A stretch of 64,000 nucleotides of DNA from Patescibacteria group bacterium (lineage in GTDB: Bacteria > Patescibacteriota > UBA1384 > XYA2-FULL-43-10 > 1-14-0-10-43-13): contig JBAZNP010000001.1 in NCBI GenBank assembly GCA_041649155.1, forward strand, positions 494,564 to 558,563. The letters run 5' to 3'. The position numbers were made by a program, and so were the translations under genes. The notes beneath the pieces were generated by a model. That model saw nothing but the letters and a program-made list of their open reading frames with translations. It was not told where the DNA came from and ran no database searches. The stretch's first letter is position 1. Each line of letters starts with the position of its first letter. Positions 117 to 6,578 of this stretch are shown one piece after another.

Positions 117-193
117 GCGCGCTTAGCTCAGCTGGTTAGAGCATCTCGTTTACACCGAGAGGGTCGGGGGTTCGAATCCCTCAGCGCGCACCA
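117..193 (+). tRNA. tRNA-Val (anticodon TAC)
   Basis: Cloverleaf folds by eye. 7-bp acceptor GCGCGCT/AGCGCGC, anticodon loop tTACac, T-loop GGTTCGAATCC, encoded 3' CCA. Confidence 0.85.
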
Positions 194-312
194 TCCCACG
201 TTGCTCATCGAAGATGAGCGATGGGGAATGGTGCAAAGATTGATTCGAAAGTCGGAGGGCGGGTAGCCCGAGACGGGGTCGACGGATTTTTCAGCAGAAA
301 AATACCGGTGAC

Positions 313-333
313 CGAATCCCTCAGCGCGCACCA
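313..333 (+). repeat. 21-nt exact duplicate of the tRNA-Val 3' end (CGAATCCCTCAGCGCGCACCA)
   Basis: Same 21-mer at 173-193 and 313-333, seen directly. The intervening 119 bp has imperfect hairpins. Confidence 0.8.
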
Positions 334-490
334 AACTTCGCCCTTTGGGCTTCGCTTGGCGAGCCAAAGCAGAAGTTTGTCCAGCGAAGCTTTAGCGGAG
401 TTGGACATTTAATTAGAACGCCACTTTGTGGCTTTAGGATTTTTAGTCTAAAGTGCAGCGTTCTAAGTTCTAAAATCTAAAAACTAGATT

Positions 491-3007: not shown

Positions 3008-3973
3008 ATGGGCTCCTTTACTAAATTAAAAGATATCCTTAATGGAGGGGATAGCTTTCTCTTGATTTGTCACAGAGATCCGGACGGTGATGCGCTTGGA
3101 TCGATTTTGGCTTTGAGTGAAGCGCTAAAAAATGAGGGCAAAAAAGTATCGATGGTTTGTTTGGACCGTGTTCCTGAAATATTTTCTTTTCTGCCTGACG
3201 TTTGCCAGTTGAAGAAAGACTTTTTGATTGGTAACTTTGATGCAATCGTGCTTTTGGATAATGGCGATCTTAGACGAACCGGCTTTCCGGAACGAATTAC
3301 GAGAATTAAAGAAAAGAACATTCCTTTAATTAATATTGATCATCACCCTAAGAATGATTTGTGGAAGTATGCCACTATTAATTATGTCAATGAATTGGCC
3401 TCATCTACTTCTGAGCTCATCTATGAGATTTTTAACGGGCTGGAGTGGAAAATTACGCCAAAGATTGCCACTGCTCTCTTGGCTGGTATTTTCTATGATA
3501 CCGGAGGATTTCAGCATACGAACACTTCAGTTGCTGTGTTAAATATTGTTTCAGATCTTCTTAAAAAAGGGGCAAAATTAAAAAAAGTTTCTGGAAGCAT
3601 TTCAAGCTCTCATTCAAACTCAATTACCCGACTGAAATTGTGGGGGATAGCCTTGGATCGCCTTTTAATAAACAGGCAATATGGCGTAGCATCTTCCTTT
3701 TTGCTTCGAAAAGAGATTGAAAAACTTAATGCATCGGATGACGAGGTATCTGGCTTGGTTAACTTAATCAGTGCTATTCCGGATACACAAGTGGCACTAT
3801 TGCTTTATGAGACGGAGGATGGTAAAATTAAAGGTAGTTTGAGAACGGAAAAAGACTCAGTTGATTTGTCAAAACTAGCTAGGATTTTGGGTGGTGGCGG
3901 ACATAAAAAAGCGGCAGGATTTTCTTTTTCTGGTCAGATTAAACAAATAAATAATATTTGGCAGATTGTTTGA
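3008..3973 (+). CDS. nrnA: DHH/DHHA1 phosphoesterase (NrnA-like oligoribonuclease/pAp phosphatase)
   Basis: DHH motif LICHRDPDGDALGS, a second IDHH motif and a C-terminal GGGH motif. Confidence 0.75.
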   Translation: MGSFTKLKDILNGGDSFLLICHRDPDGDALGSILALSEALKNEGKKVSMVCLDRVPEIFSFLPDVCQLKKDFLIGNFDAIVLLDNGDLRRTGFPERITRIKEKNIPLINIDHHPKNDLWKYATINYVNELASSTSELIYEIFNGLEWKITPKIATALLAGIFYDTGGFQHTNTSVAVLNIVSDLLKKGAKLKKVSGSISSSHSNSITRLKLWGIALDRLLINRQYGVASSFLLRKEIEKLNASDDEVSGLVNLISAIPDTQVALLLYETEDGKIKGSLRTEKDSVDLSKLARILGGGGHKKAAGFSFSGQIKQINNIWQIV

Positions 3974-3997
3974 GAGCAGTTATTAAACAGGCTCTAA

Positions 3998-4086
3998 GCC
4001 CGAGTGGTGGAATTGGTAGACACGCAAGACTTAAAATTTTGTGAGGGTTACACCTCGTGCCGGTTCGATTCCGGCCTCGGGCACCA
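3998..4086 (+). tRNA. tRNA-Leu (anticodon TAA), type II
   Basis: Acceptor GCCCGAG/CTCGGGC, anticodon loop cTTAAaa, long variable arm, T-loop GGTTCGATTCC, CCA. Confidence 0.8.
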
Positions 4087-4087
4087 A

Positions 4088-4122
4088 GAAAAAAAGACTA
4101 GATTATCTAGTCTTTTTTTCTT
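4088..4122. terminator. bidirectional rho-independent terminator
   Basis: Perfect hairpin AAAAAAAGACTAGAT-tat-CTAGTCTTTTTTTC, flanked by A and T runs. Confidence 0.8.
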
Positions 4123-4145
4123 GGTGCTCTTGCTTCCTCAACATC

Positions 4146-4174
4146 TTGAGTAGCTATCTTTGAACTGCTATCAT
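4146..4174 (+). promoter_or_regulatory. putative sigma-70 promoter (TTGAGT-N17-TATCAT)
   Basis: Hexamers read directly upstream of ORF 4225. Confidence 0.35.
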
Positions 4175-4224
4175 CAAAATAACCAATCAATCGGTCTGCC
4201 ATTGGGTAACGGAGGTGTATATAC

Positions 4225-4419
4225 ATGGTAAAAGAACTGCCGGTTTTAGAGCCAAGACCACAAAGTCAAAATCGAGTTTTCCAAGTGACCGAAGAACAGT
4301 TGGGTCATTACGCAGAAGAGATGTATGAACTGACGCATTCTGAACTAGAAAGGCTTGATCGTGATAGAATGCGTTCTGATGAAGCTGCCCATACCAGGAT
4401 GGTTCCTGGAGGAGTGTGA
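4225..4419 (+). CDS. small hypothetical protein (64 aa), paralog 1 of tandem pair
   Basis: ATG preceded by GGAGGTG. Product shares RVF..EE.G..A.E..EL...E.DR.DRM.S with the next ORF. Local GC about 48% against about 38% around. Confidence 0.5.
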   Translation: MVKELPVLEPRPQSQNRVFQVTEEQLGHYAEEMYELTHSELERLDRDRMRSDEAAHTRMVPGGV

Positions 4420-4432
4420 AGGAGGTCGGCAC

Positions 4433-4609
4433 ATGAAAGAAGCAAGTGGTTCATCGCAGAGGCACACAAGAGTATTTCGTGCGGACTCGGAAGAAGTAGG
4501 AAAACATGCAGATGAAATCTGTGAGCTAGTAGGTCCGAATATAGAAAGCGATAGGCGCGATAGAATGAGTTCTGCCACCGCCGTTCTCATTCGGGTAGTT
4601 TCCGGATGA
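4433..4609 (+). CDS. small hypothetical protein (58 aa), paralog 2 of tandem pair
   Basis: ATG at 4433 preceded by AAGGAGG. The sequence is paralogous to ORF 4225. Confidence 0.5.
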   Translation: MKEASGSSQRHTRVFRADSEEVGKHADEICELVGPNIESDRRDRMSSATAVLIRVVSG

Positions 4610-4689
4610 AAGTGACTTCTGGGGGGTAGGGCTTTTGCCTCGCCCCTTCCTTTTTATAAATAATTAGATTTTACATGTAATTATTATAG

Positions 4690-4722
4690 GAAAAAGCAGG
4701 TCCTGCAAGGACCTGCTTTTGA
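4690..4722. terminator. rho-independent terminator (serves minus-strand BCCP-like gene, also plus strand)
   Basis: Hairpin AAGCAGGTCC-tgca-AGGACCTGCTT with T-runs on both strands. Confidence 0.7.
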
Positions 4723-4739
4723 TGTTCTTTTAATGAAGT

Positions 4740-5045
4740 TTAAGCTTCCGGTGGCAGAAGTAAGACCAGATCGTCTCCTTCATGTACTAGTGTACCGTTC
4801 TCTACCATGATCTTGACGACCTTCATTGGCATAGGTCCATCAAACGGGATCGGGCTAAAGACTTTCATTGCCTCGATCAGGGCGACTTCATGCCCCGGTT
4901 CGATGATATCGCCGACTTTAATGAAAAGTGGTGTATTACCTGGACATGGAGAGTTGTAATAAAAGCCAACAAGCGGCGATTTGATGGCATACAACTTTTC
5001 TTTATCTGCTTCCGAAATGTCGAGACTTGCTTCAGTATTGGACAT
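4740..5045 (-). CDS. biotin-carboxyl-carrier-like protein (biotinyl/lipoyl domain, EAMKV motif)
   Basis: C-terminal SPLVGFYY...GDIIEPGHEVALIEAMKVFSPI...VHEGDDLVLL matches the BCCP biotinyl domain. Start set at the Met that begins the domain; the ORF is open further upstream. Confidence 0.65.
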   Translation of the reverse strand: MSNTEASLDISEADKEKLYAIKSPLVGFYYNSPCPGNTPLFIKVGDIIEPGHEVALIEAMKVFSPIPFDGPMPMKVVKIMVENGTLVHEGDDLVLLLPPEA

Positions 5046-5194
5046 TATTTTTCTATCTTCGCAGATGCTAGTTACTACAGCTGAGAGTGACACAAGAGAT
5101 TTTTCATCTAATCTCGTGATCTCTTTCGCAGCAGCATTGCTTAATCCAGCTGCTATCAAGACTCTAATATTGGCTTTATCTACTCTGTTTTCCA

Positions 5195-5761
5195 CTACGC
5201 ACCTCCTTCGAGCCAGCGGTGAAGCTTTATTCGATAGGGGCTGGCGATTGCGATCGCTAATGCGCACTTTGCTATGTCTGCAAGCACAAATGGCAGAACC
5301 CCAAAAGTTACTGCTTTGCCCAAGCCATGGACAAAGAACGACAGCCATATGGCTCCAAGTGTGTAGATAATCAATAGCCCAACTGCGGAAGCCAAAATCA
5401 TGGATGCAGGGCTTTTTGATCGCTCGCTAATTATTCCAATTGCTAGTGTAGCAAAAGGAAAAGCAATTAAATAACCTCCAGTCGGACCAAATAAAGCGCC
5501 TGGTCCTGATATTCCGGATGCTGCGATCATTCCTCCTGATCCAAGAACTACCCAGAAGCATGCTTGTGCCACTGAAGCTCCGCTTCCCAGCAAGAGACCA
5601 GATAGTACCACGACGAAAACCTGCATGGTTATTGGTACCGATGTGAATGGAAGATAGAGCGCCATTCGTGAAGACGCTACCATGGCGATTACTGTTAGTG
5701 CCATAAATAGAATGGCTCTGTCCCATAACAAAACCTTCGGTCGGACTAAAACCTGCGACAT
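5195..5761 (-). CDS. bioY: biotin transporter BioY (ECF S-component)
   Basis: 188-aa polytopic membrane protein with BioY motifs (VPIT.Q.F.V.L.G.LLG, GPTGGYL). RBS GAGGTGG present. Confidence 0.8.
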   Translation of the reverse strand: MSQVLVRPKVLLWDRAILFMALTVIAMVASSRMALYLPFTSVPITMQVFVVVLSGLLLGSGASVAQACFWVVLGSGGMIAASGISGPGALFGPTGGYLIAFPFATLAIGIISERSKSPASMILASAVGLLIIYTLGAIWLSFFVHGLGKAVTFGVLPFVLADIAKCALAIAIASPYRIKLHRWLEGGA

Positions 5762-5933
5762 TTGGTATCCACCTCATTTTCAAGATTGCATCAGGGATGC
5801 TCATAAAATAATAGGTAAAAAGATAATGTCTGTCAACCTATTTCAAAAATTAAAAGCGTTTATTTTTCTATTTTTTATATTTTTAAAATATGATATATAT
5901 ATACTGAGGCTAATAATTTAATATTCATAAATT

Positions 5934-6578
5934 ATGATCAAAAAGAGGGCGCTAGCTAAATACGGAGTAGCTGGAGTAGTAGTTTTGGCAGTGGCAACAA
6001 TGCTATATCTATATGTTCCGGTTTATTTCGGCGATACGGTGTATCCATTGAAATATGAGGAGTACATTAGAACGTATTCAACCAAATATGATGTTGACCC
6101 GACTTTAGTCGCGGCGGTTATTCTGCAGGAAAGCAGGTTTAATCCAAGTTCAGTTTCCAGCGTTGGAGCTCAAGGTTTGATGCAGTTTATGCCTGGCACT
6201 GCGGCAACGATGGCTAAAGAAACGGGCCGATGGCCGAATTATGACATTTTTGATCCCGAGACATCAGTTGAATTTGGGGCTGCTCATCTCAGGGACTTGC
6301 TGGTCAAGTATAATGGTAATGTTGATTTGGCTCTGTACGCATACAATACCGGAACCGGCAATGCGGCTAAGTACATTAATTCACCTTCGTCGATAGCTAA
6401 TTTTTCTTACGTTAAAAAAATACGAAATTATCAGACTGTATATCAATCAATGTATGCCAAGGAGCTTGGAACTGAGCCTATAAAAATTGAAAAAGTTGAT
6501 AATAATAAAGCGGAAGTCAGAGGATTTATCTGGTCACAAATATTTTCTAGTTTCTCAGACTACTTTGACAAGAACTAA
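5934..6578 (+). CDS. lytic transglycosylase (SLT domain) with N-terminal membrane anchor
   Basis: SLT motifs ES.FNP..VS..GA.GLMQFMP.TA and AYN.G. Confidence 0.8.
   Translation: MIKKRALAKYGVAGVVVLAVATMLYLYVPVYFGDTVYPLKYEEYIRTYSTKYDVDPTLVAAVILQESRFNPSSVSSVGAQGLMQFMPGTAATMAKETGRWPNYDIFDPETSVEFGAAHLRDLLVKYNGNVDLALYAYNTGTGNAAKYINSPSSIANFSYVKKIRNYQTVYQSMYAKELGTEPIKIEKVDNNKAEVRGFIWSQIFSSFSDYFDKN

What the first reader, a model, noticed from the sequence alone, without database searches (positions are those of the whole stretch)
4123..4665. GC-richer mini-island beside tRNA-Leu(TAA) with two tandem, mutually paralogous small-protein genes
A pair of ORFs of 64 and 58 aa sits directly downstream of a tRNA and its terminator. 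Each has a strong Shine-Dalgarno (GGAGGTG, AAGGAGG). They share a conserved core (RVF-x4-EE-x-G-x(H/K)-A-(E/D)E-x3-EL-x5-E-x-DR-x-DRM-x-S). Local GC is about 48% against a background of about 38%. The unit has its own promoter-like hexamers (TTGAGT-N17-TATCAT) and is bounded by terminators on both sides. The composition shift, the tRNA adjacency and the lack of any family match suggest a small horizontally acquired module. Possibilities include a toxin/antitoxin-like or regulator pair, or peptide precursors.
Basis: partly seen in the sequence, partly recalled or inferred. Interest (0 to 1): 0.55.

Follow-up and report, generated by a model that had tools for sequence, protein, structure and literature searches.

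The report
Orphan tandem small-protein genes beside tRNA-Leu
Two neighbouring genes for related ~60-residue helical proteins are real and sit in a strain-specific 1.7-kb insertion next to a tRNA gene of a Patescibacteria (Berkelbacteria-like) genome. They belong to a family seen in only two organisms, and their function is still a guess.

Summary
ORF1 (4225-4419, 64 aa) and ORF2 (4433-4609, 58 aa, not the TTG-extended form) are tandem paralogues (39% identity, E 4e-11). Each has a strong Shine-Dalgarno site, and promoter-like hexamers and a terminator flank the pair. Both are truly coding: nucleotide identity by codon position is 0.61/0.71/0.35.

An exhaustive HMMER search of 1.84 billion representative proteins found one further relative, in another groundwater Patescibacteria contig. 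Pfam, NCBIfam, PHROGs, PADLOC, PDB and Rfam gave nothing.

Synteny in 38 relatives shows an ancestral order DHH, tRNA-Leu(taa), SLT, AlaRS. The five closest relatives have only 50-128 bp between the tRNA and SLT. The window carries a ~1.7-kb insertion there (about 4128-5850) holding the two small genes and a convergent BioY/BCCP-like pair. Other relatives carry methylase, toxin-antitoxin and homing-endonuclease cargo at the same junction, so it is a hotspot.

The GC rise is not a foreign signature for the small genes. GC3 is 0.34, equal to the host; the excess lies at codon positions 1-2.

AlphaFold2 predicts a disordered N-terminus plus one long helix. The best guess is a coiled-coil (hetero)dimer acting as an accessory adaptor or regulator. 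This is an ordinary orphan islet of modest interest.

The parts
3998..4086 (+). tRNA-Leu(taa). It forms the conserved left border of the variable junction.
   Evidence: ARAGORN and Rfam tRNA at 58 bits. The same tRNA follows the DHH gene in 38 relatives.
4081..4127 (.). Perfect 23-bp inverted repeat with A-tract and T-tract. It looks like a bidirectional terminator, and its 5' arm includes the tRNA 3' end GCACCA.
   Evidence: fold -37.6 kcal/mol, z = -11.4.
4128..5850 (.). Strain-specific insertion of about 1.7 kb relative to the closest relatives. It holds ORF1, ORF2, the BCCP-like gene and BioY. The right border is approximate (5845-5870).
   Evidence: Flank alignment to L004 and L005. The tRNA-to-SLT gap is 50-128 bp in the five closest relatives. 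No flanking direct repeats and no integrase.
4146..4174 (+). Sigma-70-like promoter candidate TTGAGT-N17-TATCAT, with TG before the -10 element.
   Evidence: This is a consensus match only (2 found against 0.9 expected).
4211..4217 (+). Shine-Dalgarno GGAGGTG of ORF1, 7 nt before the ATG.
   Evidence: Sequence read.
4225..4419 (+). ORF1, 64 aa, acidic (pI 5.05). Predicted as a disordered N-terminus plus one helix over residues 23-57, ending ...RMVPGGV.
   Evidence: called as a gene in three assemblies; AlphaFold2, pLDDT 72.5, core about 90; coding signature.
4419..4425 (+). Shine-Dalgarno AAGGAGG of ORF2. It overlaps the ORF1 stop codon, which suggests translational coupling.
   Evidence: Sequence read.
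4433..4609 (+). ORF2, 58 aa, paralogue of ORF1. Predicted helix over residues 19-57, ending ...RVVSG.
4622..4658 (+). Terminator-like G+C-rich hairpin (4622-4647) followed by a U-run, closing the two-gene unit.
   Evidence: The consensus scanner did not call it because the stem has a mismatch.
4692..4720 (.). 13-bp perfect hairpin between the convergent units. It is the likely terminator of the BCCP-like/BioY operon.
   Evidence: z = -4.4.
4740..5195 (-). Biotin carboxyl carrier-like protein, 151 aa, with an EAMKV biotinyl-lysine motif. It is part of the same insertion.
   Evidence: Pfam Biotin_lipoyl, E = 3e-8; gene call; GC3 0.41.
5195..5761 (-). BioY biotin transporter S-component, 188 aa. 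It is part of the same insertion.
   Evidence: Pfam BioY, E = 8e-31. The nearest database homologues are only 38-43% identical.

Best explanation
The pair is a small two-gene operon with its own promoter-like site, two strong ribosome-binding sites and its own terminator. It encodes two anciently duplicated paralogues of a near-orphan family of ~60-residue soluble proteins.

Each protein has a variable, disordered N-terminus and a short RVF-type motif. These are followed by one long amphipathic helix of about 35-39 residues. The N-half of the helix is acidic, and the C-half carries the invariant R-D/A-R-M/L-x-S...A...R-x-V-(P/S)-G motif.

The operon lies in a ~1.7-kb strain-specific insertion at the junction between tRNA-Leu(taa) and the SLT gene. 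In Berkelbacteria-like genomes this junction is a hotspot for accessory, mobile and defence-type cargo.

Inferred mechanism, not shown: the two helices pair as a coiled-coil heterodimer and/or homodimers. The acidic N-half may lie against the Arg-rich C-half of the partner chain. The dimer would act as a non-enzymatic adaptor or regulator, binding a larger host protein or nucleic acid through the conserved Arg/Ser face. The role would be dispensable and strain-specific.

Shown here: the genes, their paralogy, purifying selection, rarity, accessory location and host-like synonymous composition. Inferred: dimerisation, the binding partner and the biological role.
For: - Paralogy: BLASTP E = 4e-11.
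- Coding under purifying selection: nucleotide identity by codon position is 0.61/0.71/0.35 for ORF1 against ORF2 (Fisher p = 5e-4), and 0.57/0.70/0.24 for ORF1 against the outside homologue P0003 (p = 2.4e-5). GC1 > GC2 > GC3 in the stated frames.
- No RNA alternative: the RNA fold has z = -0.81, and Rfam finds only the tRNA.
- Rarity: HMMER over 1.84e9 representative proteins finds only ORF1, ORF2 and P0003. The word-index profile search finds the same three. None is found in 60 relatives' loci, JGI metagenome contigs, IMG/VR, phage or plasmid records.
- Accessory location: 17 of 38 syntenic relatives, including the five closest, have tRNA-Leu(taa) directly followed by SLT. The others carry unrelated cargo at the junction: N6_N4 methylase, a DUF4258/DUF2283 pair, GIY-YIG, LAGLIDADG, Bro-N and Schlafen/AlbA_2.
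- The outside homologue is also in variable DNA: a strain with an identical IF-1 protein and a conserved infA promoter region has an IS remnant in its place.
- Structure: AlphaFold2 gives one long helix for both proteins, residues 23-57 and 19-57, with core pLDDT about 85-91.
- Charge split along the helix: the N-half is -3 to -5 and the C-half is -1 to +1, with conserved Arg residues.
- Operon signals.
Against: - No experiment or expression data were available.
- The AlphaFold2 models rest on a three-sequence alignment (pTM 0.35) and on monomers, so oligomeric state and any helix break cannot be judged. ORF2 has Gly-Pro in the middle of the predicted helix.
- No conserved gene neighbour exists to suggest a partner. 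P0003 sits next to infA, while the window pair sits next to BioY/BCCP.
- With only three sequences, the conserved 'face' is weakly defined.
- The promoter match is no better than about twice the chance expectation.
- Host-like GC3 fits an old resident or a donor of similar GC, but does not tell how or when the genes arrived.
Confidence: 0.6

Rival explanations
1. The proteins are ribbon-helix-helix-type (CopG/Arc/MetJ-like) DNA-binding proteins. The RVF motif would be the N-terminal beta-strand, followed by helix A (about 22-37), a turn at T-H-S / G-P-N, and helix B. They would dimerise to form a small transcriptional repressor, or an antitoxin-like regulator.
For: - The lengths and order of the elements fit an RHH fold.
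- 'ELTHSELERL' resembles the G-x-S/T-x-S-E-L motif at the start of RHH helix B. This comes from my own knowledge of the family and was not tested.
- ORF2 has Gly-Pro exactly at the putative turn.
- Arg residues are conserved.
- The P0003 homologue carries an N-terminal Cys-rich knuckle, CHGANECPECGG.
Against: - No RHH family appears in Pfam even at E <= 10, and none in NCBIfam.
- The PDB profile search finds no RHH structure.
- AlphaFold2 predicts an uninterrupted helix through the putative turn with high local confidence, and a coil for the RVF segment.
- Putative helix B has too few conserved hydrophobic residues for an RHH dimer core.
- There is no toxin partner.
Confidence: 0.1
2. The proteins are cargo of a mobile element or defence island. 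They would be small acidic helical proteins that act in conflict, for example as anti-restriction or DNA-mimic factors or as modulators of a defence system. This would fit what the same hotspot carries in relatives.
For: - The junction carries a methylase next to an unassigned 250-aa ORF (a possible restriction-modification unit), a toxin-antitoxin pair, GIY-YIG, LAGLIDADG, Bro-N and Schlafen/AlbA_2 genes in relatives.
- Both known loci of the family are variable between close strains.
- ORF1 is acidic (pI 5.05), with an acidic N-half of the helix.
- Extreme rarity is typical of fast-evolving conflict genes.
Against: - There are no PADLOC or PHROGs hits.
- The family is absent from IMG/VR, INPHARED phages and PLSDB plasmids.
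- The insertion has no integrase, no att repeats and no defence gene.
- The neighbouring cargo here is metabolic (BioY and BCCP-like).
Confidence: 0.15
3. The proteins are ribosomally synthesised peptide precursors (RiPP or two-peptide bacteriocin), or ubiquitin/Pup-like tags that use the conserved C-terminal glycine.
For: - Tandem paralogous small genes are typical of precursor peptides.
- All three family members end in or near Gly: VPGGV, VVSG and RVPG.
- ORF1 is 64 aa, disordered plus helical, as Pup is (own knowledge).
Against: - No maturase, transporter, E1-like, PafA/Dop-like or protease gene lies within +/-10 kb.
- There is no double-glycine or other leader motif.
- The proteins are highly charged and not Cys/Ser/Thr-rich.
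- There are no Pfam or NCBIfam precursor hits.
- A glycine at a helix C-cap is common and needs no special explanation.
Confidence: 0.04
4. The feature is not two protein genes. It would be either chance ORFs inside a G+C-rich structured RNA, or frame-shifted fragments of one larger gene.
For: - G+C-rich patches in A+T-rich genomes are often RNA genes.
- The two ORFs are in different frames.
Against: - The RNA fold is no better than shuffles (z = -0.81), and no Rfam family matches.
- Third codon positions are saturated while positions 1 and 2 are conserved between the paralogues and with P0003.
- Each ORF contains the whole conserved domain with its own SD and start, so they are duplicates, not halves.
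- No longer homologue exists among 1.84e9 representative proteins.
Confidence: 0.02

Closest known systems
tRNA-flanking genomic islets / integration hotspots
   Same: The insertion lies immediately 3' of a tRNA gene. It is present in this strain and absent in the closest relatives, and different cargo occupies the same junction in other relatives.
   Different: It has no integrase, no direct repeat of the tRNA 3' end at the far border and no mobility gene. It is only about 1.7 kb. The small genes have host-like GC3.
Taxonomically restricted (orphan) small proteins of bacteria
   Same: The proteins are under 70 aa, cytosolic and charged. They have no family assignment and are found in two organisms only.
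   Different: The coding status is unusually well supported for an orphan, by an internal paralogue and one outside homologue that show purifying selection.
Ribbon-helix-helix regulators and antitoxins (CopG/Arc/MetJ superfamily)
   Same: They share the size, the order 'short N-terminal strand-like motif, then helices', the conserved arginines and the expectation of dimer function.
   Different: There is no sequence-profile match. AlphaFold2 predicts one continuous helix, and there is no partner toxin.
WXG100 (ESAT-6/CFP-10) tandem paralogue pairs
   Same: Both are adjacent paralogous genes for small, all-helical proteins that would be expected to heterodimerise.
   Different: WXG100 proteins are about 100 aa helix-turn-helix hairpins with a WXG motif and type VII secretion neighbours. 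None of that is present here.
Pup / UBact prokaryotic ubiquitin-like tags
   Same: They are about 60 aa, largely disordered with a helix-forming C-half, and have a Gly-containing C-terminus.
   Different: There is no GGQ/GGE or R-T-G-E end, no ligase, deamidase or proteasome genes nearby, and no sequence similarity.

Membership tests
tRNA-linked integrative genomic island | Located at the 3' side of a tRNA gene and variably present among relatives. | tested here: met
tRNA-linked integrative genomic island | Tyrosine or serine integrase gene inside the island. | tested here: not met
   Only four genes lie in the insert (two small ORFs, BCCP-like and BioY), and none is a recombinase.
tRNA-linked integrative genomic island | Direct repeat of the tRNA 3' end (attL/attR) bounding the island. 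| tested here: not met
   The repeat finder on 3950-5960 shows no such repeat.
tRNA-linked integrative genomic island | Atypical nucleotide composition at synonymous sites. | tested here: inconclusive
   BioY plus BCCP-like have GC3 0.41, above all 10,000 host chunks. ORF1 plus ORF2 have GC3 0.339, equal to the host mean of 0.338.
Type II toxin-antitoxin pair | Two different proteins, one with a toxin fold and one antitoxin with a DNA-binding domain. | tested here: not met
   The two proteins are paralogues. There is no toxin or antitoxin family in Pfam or PADLOC.
Ribbon-helix-helix superfamily | Profile match to an RHH family, or a beta-alpha-alpha fold. | tested here: not met
   There is no RHH hit at E <= 10. 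AlphaFold2 monomer models show a single long helix.
RiPP / bacteriocin precursor | Adjacent maturation enzyme or dedicated transporter, and a leader/core organisation. | tested here: not met
   The neighbours are DHH, the tRNA, BCCP-like, BioY, SLT and AlaRS. No leader family is found in Pfam or NCBIfam.
Pup/ubiquitin-like modifier | C-terminal GG(Q/E) or GG end, plus a ligase or E1-like enzyme in the genome. | tested here: inconclusive
   The ends are VPGGV, VVSG and RVPG. No ligase lies within +/-10 kb. The rest of the 0.8-Mb genome was not available.
Structured non-coding RNA | Folding energy or covariation beyond chance, or an Rfam match. | tested here: not met
   z = -0.81. Rfam finds only the tRNA.

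The most novel reading that the evidence does not exclude
ORF1, ORF2 and P0003 would be the first sampled members of a mobile, fast-evolving family of Patescibacteria-specific small coiled-coil effectors. They would move between variable loci. Their conserved Arg-rich helix and C-terminal R-x-V-P-G end would either disarm a host or episymbiont defence or partner protein, or serve as a C-terminal-glycine conjugation tag.
Probability: 0.07. Interest if true: 0.6.

Novelty: new member of a known kind. Interest (0 to 1): 0.27.

Why it matters
If the reading is right, this is a clean and well-supported example of a taxonomically restricted small-protein family in an ultra-small Patescibacteria genome. 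It is duplicated, under purifying selection, and lodged in a tRNA-flanking hotspot. Such genomes have very little accessory DNA, so what they keep in their few variable sites may hint at strain-specific interactions with hosts or phages.

The case also carries a methodological caution. A local G+C rise in an A+T-rich genome can come entirely from amino-acid composition (codon positions 1-2) and is not by itself a sign of horizontal transfer. Here synteny, not composition, carries that argument.

By itself the pair does not open a long-standing question.

Tried and rejected
**Non-coding RNA reading**
- Rfam at the gathering threshold and at E <= 10, plus an MFE z-score: rejected.

**Family assignment**
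- Pfam, NCBIfam, PHROGs and PADLOC gave no hit for ORF1 or ORF2 apart from two weak Pfam matches for ORF1 (SNF5 E = 0.15, Fur_reg_FbpA E = 0.18, both below Pfam's cut-offs). P0003 gave only weak PHROGs hits on its Cys knuckle (best E = 0.02).
- The PDB sequence-profile search gave one designed mini-protein at E = 0.1, which is not meaningful.
- Foldseek of both AlphaFold2 models against the PDB gave 0 hits, as expected for a single helix.

**More family members**
- The word-index search with one protein and with a profile, and the exhaustive HMMER search, found only three sequences.
- The alignment-based scans of JGI metagenome contigs and IMG/VR found none.
- A back-translated ELTHxE[IL]ExxxRxR[ML]xS DNA pattern matched six metagenome contigs. 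All are chance matches inside unrelated ORFs.
- tblastn against phages and plasmids found none.

**Heterodimer model**

**Donor of the insertion**
- The nearest BioY homologues are only 38-43% identical and sit in unrelated contexts, so the donor is unknown.

**att-type repeats around the insertion**
- None were found.

**Polymorphism between three assemblies of the same organism**
- There were 0 differences, so no population-level dN/dS could be calculated.

**Literature search for small proteins in Berkelbacteria**
- Nothing specific turned up.

Full report
**1. What is there**

The window comes from a Patescibacteria (CPR) metagenome-assembled genome. Both small proteins are deposited as 'hypothetical protein' WC536_02640 and WC536_02645, on a 798,787-bp contig.

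- tRNA-Leu(taa) occupies 3998-4086.
- Its 3' end is part of a perfect 23-bp inverted repeat at 4081-4127, flanked by A- and T-tracts (-37.6 kcal/mol, z = -11.4).
- A sigma-70-like match, TTGAGT-N17-TATCAT, lies at 4146-4174.
- ORF1 is 4225-4419 (64 aa), preceded by GGAGGTG at 4211-4217.
- ORF2 is 4433-4609 (58 aa). Its AAGGAGG at 4419-4425 overlaps the ORF1 stop codon.
- The mechanical ORF list extends ORF2 to a TTG at 4355.
- A G+C-rich hairpin at 4622-4647 followed by a U-run closes the unit. A second hairpin at 4692-4720 belongs to the convergent operon.

**2. Are they real genes?**

Yes.

- The two proteins are paralogues, with 20/51 identities and E = 4e-11. A 33-nt stretch is still 76% identical at the DNA level.
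- Codon-aligned nucleotide identity is 0.61, 0.71 and 0.35 at positions 1, 2 and 3 (Fisher p = 5e-4).
- Against the only outside homologue the values are 0.57, 0.70 and 0.24 (p = 2.4e-5).
- Synonymous sites are therefore saturated while the protein is conserved. That is the signature of old, selected coding sequence.
- The alternative of a structured RNA fails. The fold has z = -0.81, and Rfam finds nothing but the tRNA, even at E <= 10.
- They are not halves of one gene. Each contains the whole conserved domain, and no longer homologue exists.

**3. How rare is the family?**

- HMMER with a profile of the two paralogues, read against all 1.84 billion representative proteins, returned ORF1, ORF2 and one more protein, P0003 (E = 4.5e-4).
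- A profile of the three in the word-indexed 5.8-billion set returned the same three.
- Pattern-plus-tblastn scans of JGI metagenome contigs and IMG/VR found none.
- A specific back-translated motif gave only chance matches.
- Phage and plasmid collections gave nothing.
- P0003 is called as 109 aa, but probably starts at an SD-preceded ATG, giving 83 aa. It has an N-terminal Cys-rich knuckle (CHGANECPECGG) and the same C-terminal domain, ending RRVPG, with its own terminator.
- It lies upstream of infA on a 1.3-kb groundwater contig. A strain with an identical IF-1 protein and a conserved infA promoter region carries an IS remnant (HTH_28/HTH_32 plus an integrase-core fragment) in its place.
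- The family is therefore in variable DNA in both organisms where it is known.

**4. Context and origin**

I used the upstream DHH/DHHA1 protein to fetch 60 related loci from GTDB species representatives. All the closer ones are Berkelbacteria-like.

- Thirty-eight of them keep the order DHH, tRNA-Leu(taa), SLT (lytic transglycosylase), AlaRS.
- In 17 of these the tRNA-to-SLT gap is under 250 bp. These include the five closest: L004 (78% DHH identity) has 110 bp, L005 has 122, L006 has 56, L007 has 128 and L010 has 50.
- The window has 1.85 kb at that place.
- Alignment of the flanks to L004 puts the insertion at about 4128 to about 5850. The SLT promoter region to the right is conserved.
- The insertion holds two convergent units: ORF1-ORF2, and a BCCP-like biotinyl-domain gene plus BioY.
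- There is no integrase and no att-type repeat.
- None of the 60 loci contains a family member in any frame.
- Other relatives carry 0.4-5.5 kb of unrelated cargo at the same junction: an N6/N4 DNA methylase next to an unassigned 250-aa ORF, a DUF4258/DUF2283 pair, GIY-YIG and LAGLIDADG endonucleases, Bro-N, Schlafen/AlbA_2, and ORFs that look like an ABC transporter and a glycosyltransferase from their sequence only.

**5. The composition argument does not hold for the small genes**

- The 543-bp region is 45.9% G+C against 38.2% for the window, which places it in the top 1.9% of windows.
- Split by codon position, ORF1 plus ORF2 are 0.62/0.43/0.34. Host genes are 0.48/0.35/0.34. GC3 sits exactly on the host mean: 49% of host chunks are as high.
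- The excess reflects a Glu/Asp/Arg/Gly/Ala-rich protein, not foreign DNA.
- BioY plus the BCCP-like gene, by contrast, have GC3 0.41, higher than all 10,000 host chunks.
- The two halves of the insertion may therefore have different histories. Alternatively, the small genes came from a donor of similar G+C, or have resided in the lineage longer.
- ORF1, ORF2 and P0003 are roughly equidistant from each other at 33-42% identity. The duplication is thus about as old as the split from P0003. This fits an old, mobile family better than a recent local birth.

**6. What the proteins look like**

- AlphaFold2, with only a three-sequence alignment, predicts for both a low-confidence N-terminus and one long helix. 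The helix spans residues 23-57 in ORF1 and 19-57 in ORF2.
- Mean pLDDT is 72-76, and the core is about 85-91.
- Foldseek finds nothing.
- The N-half of the helix is acidic, with net charge -3 to -5. The C-half carries the invariant R46, R48, S51, A54, R58, V60 and G62 (ORF1 numbering).
- There is no signal peptide and no hydrophobic segment. GRAVY is -0.6 to -0.9.

**7. Most likely mechanism**

- I commit to a small soluble coiled-coil (hetero)dimer that acts as an adaptor or regulator by binding a larger partner or nucleic acid.
- This is inferred from the amphipathic single-helix prediction, the complementary charge of the two halves, the tandem paralogue arrangement with coupled translation signals, and what cytosolic small proteins generally do.
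- It is not shown. The genomic facts I hold at about 0.85-0.9, and the functional reading at about 0.3.

Rivals:
- An RHH-type DNA binder is attractive from the motif order, but no profile supports it and neither do the models.
- A conflict-related role, such as anti-restriction or defence modulation, is suggested only by the company kept at this hotspot.
- Peptide precursor or Pup-like tag readings lack any enzyme neighbour.
- Spurious ORFs are refuted.

**8. Comparison and novelty**

The feature is best filed as a tRNA-flanking variable islet that carries an orphan small-protein family. It fails the defining tests of an integrase-borne island, a toxin-antitoxin pair, an RHH protein and a RiPP locus (see the membership table). 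The protein family is new to the databases, but the kind of thing is familiar.

**9. Side observation**

The G+C-rich spacer between tRNA-Val and tRNA-Leu(gag) (window 194-490) is more unusual than the finding itself.

- It folds far better than shuffles, with z = -6.9.
- It contains an ~80-nt three-way-junction motif at 240-319. A covariance model finds six copies of this motif in 607 kb of Berkelbacteria-like DNA, each shortly downstream of a tRNA gene.
- In those copies, 17 of 28 base pairs show compensatory changes, 96% of cells are paired, and 0 of 500 shuffles reach the observed values.
- In five of the six copies the motif is followed by a duplicate of the 3' end of the preceding tRNA: an exact 21-nt copy in four, and 20 of 21 nt in L017.
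- It has no Rfam match.
- It was only partly followed up.

Noticed in passing
window 194-333 (core 240-319); also L006 3410-3489 and 3679-3758, L012 135-214, L024 3347-3429, L017 325-406: An ~80-nt conserved three-way-junction motif lies shortly 3' of tRNA genes (Val-tac, Leu-gag, Leu-cag) in Berkelbacteria-like genomes. In 5 of 6 copies it is directly followed by a duplicate of the 3' end (T-loop to CCA) of that particular tRNA: an exact 21-nt copy in four, and 20 of 21 nt in L017. In the window the repeat CGAATCCCTCAGCGCGCACCA is at 173-193 and 313-333. Covariation is strong: 17 of 28 pairs carry compensatory changes, 96% of cells are paired, and 0 of 500 shuffles reach the observed values. 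There is no Rfam match even at E <= 1, and the motif is absent from IMG/VR. It could be a miniature element that targets tRNA 3' ends, or a tRNA-linked processed RNA or ribozyme. It looks new and deserves its own study.
   Followed up: partly
window 334-420; L005 2477-2567 and 2705-2779: A second G+C-rich hairpin element (AACTTCGCCCTTTGGGCTTCGC...GTTGGACA) directly follows the duplicated tRNA-Val end in the window. It recurs right after the CCA of tRNA-Val and of tRNA-Leu(gag) in L005 (nhmmer E = 9e-14 and 4e-9). The whole spacer 194-490 folds with z = -6.9.
   Followed up: partly
junction between tRNA-Leu(taa) and the SLT gene: window 4087-5933 and the same place in L009, L013, L016, L018, L026, L035, L037, L051 and others: This junction is a hotspot of variable cargo across Berkelbacteria-like genomes, with inserts of 0 to 5.5 kb. 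The cargo includes an N6_N4 methylase next to an unassigned 250-aa ORF, a DUF4258/DUF2283 pair, GIY-YIG, LAGLIDADG_3, Bro-N, Schlafen/AlbA_2, and ORFs that look like an ABC transporter and a glycosyltransferase from sequence alone.
   Followed up: partly
window 4740-5761 (- strand): A BioY biotin transporter and a 151-aa BCCP-like biotinyl-domain protein (EAMKV motif) form the other half of the insertion. Their GC3 (0.41) exceeds that of every sampled host chunk. The nearest BioY homologues among 5.8 billion proteins are only 38-43% identical. This is an acquired, highly divergent biotin uptake and carrier pair in a reduced genome.
   Followed up: partly
window 4081-4127; compare window 189-234, L012 ~76-120, L017 ~266-310: tRNA genes in these genomes are often followed by a long hairpin whose 5' arm begins inside the acceptor 3' strand and CCA (…CACCA…) and whose 3' arm ends in TGGTG. 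The hairpin would therefore sequester the tRNA 3' end. The one after tRNA-Leu(taa) is a perfect 23-bp stem.
   Followed up: no
L003 659-910 (P0003) and L070 1325-2353: The only outside homologue of the family has an N-terminal Cys-rich knuckle (CHGANECPECGG). It occupies a site upstream of infA that holds an IS remnant (HTH_28/HTH_32 plus an integrase-core fragment) in a strain with an identical IF-1 protein.
   Followed up: partly
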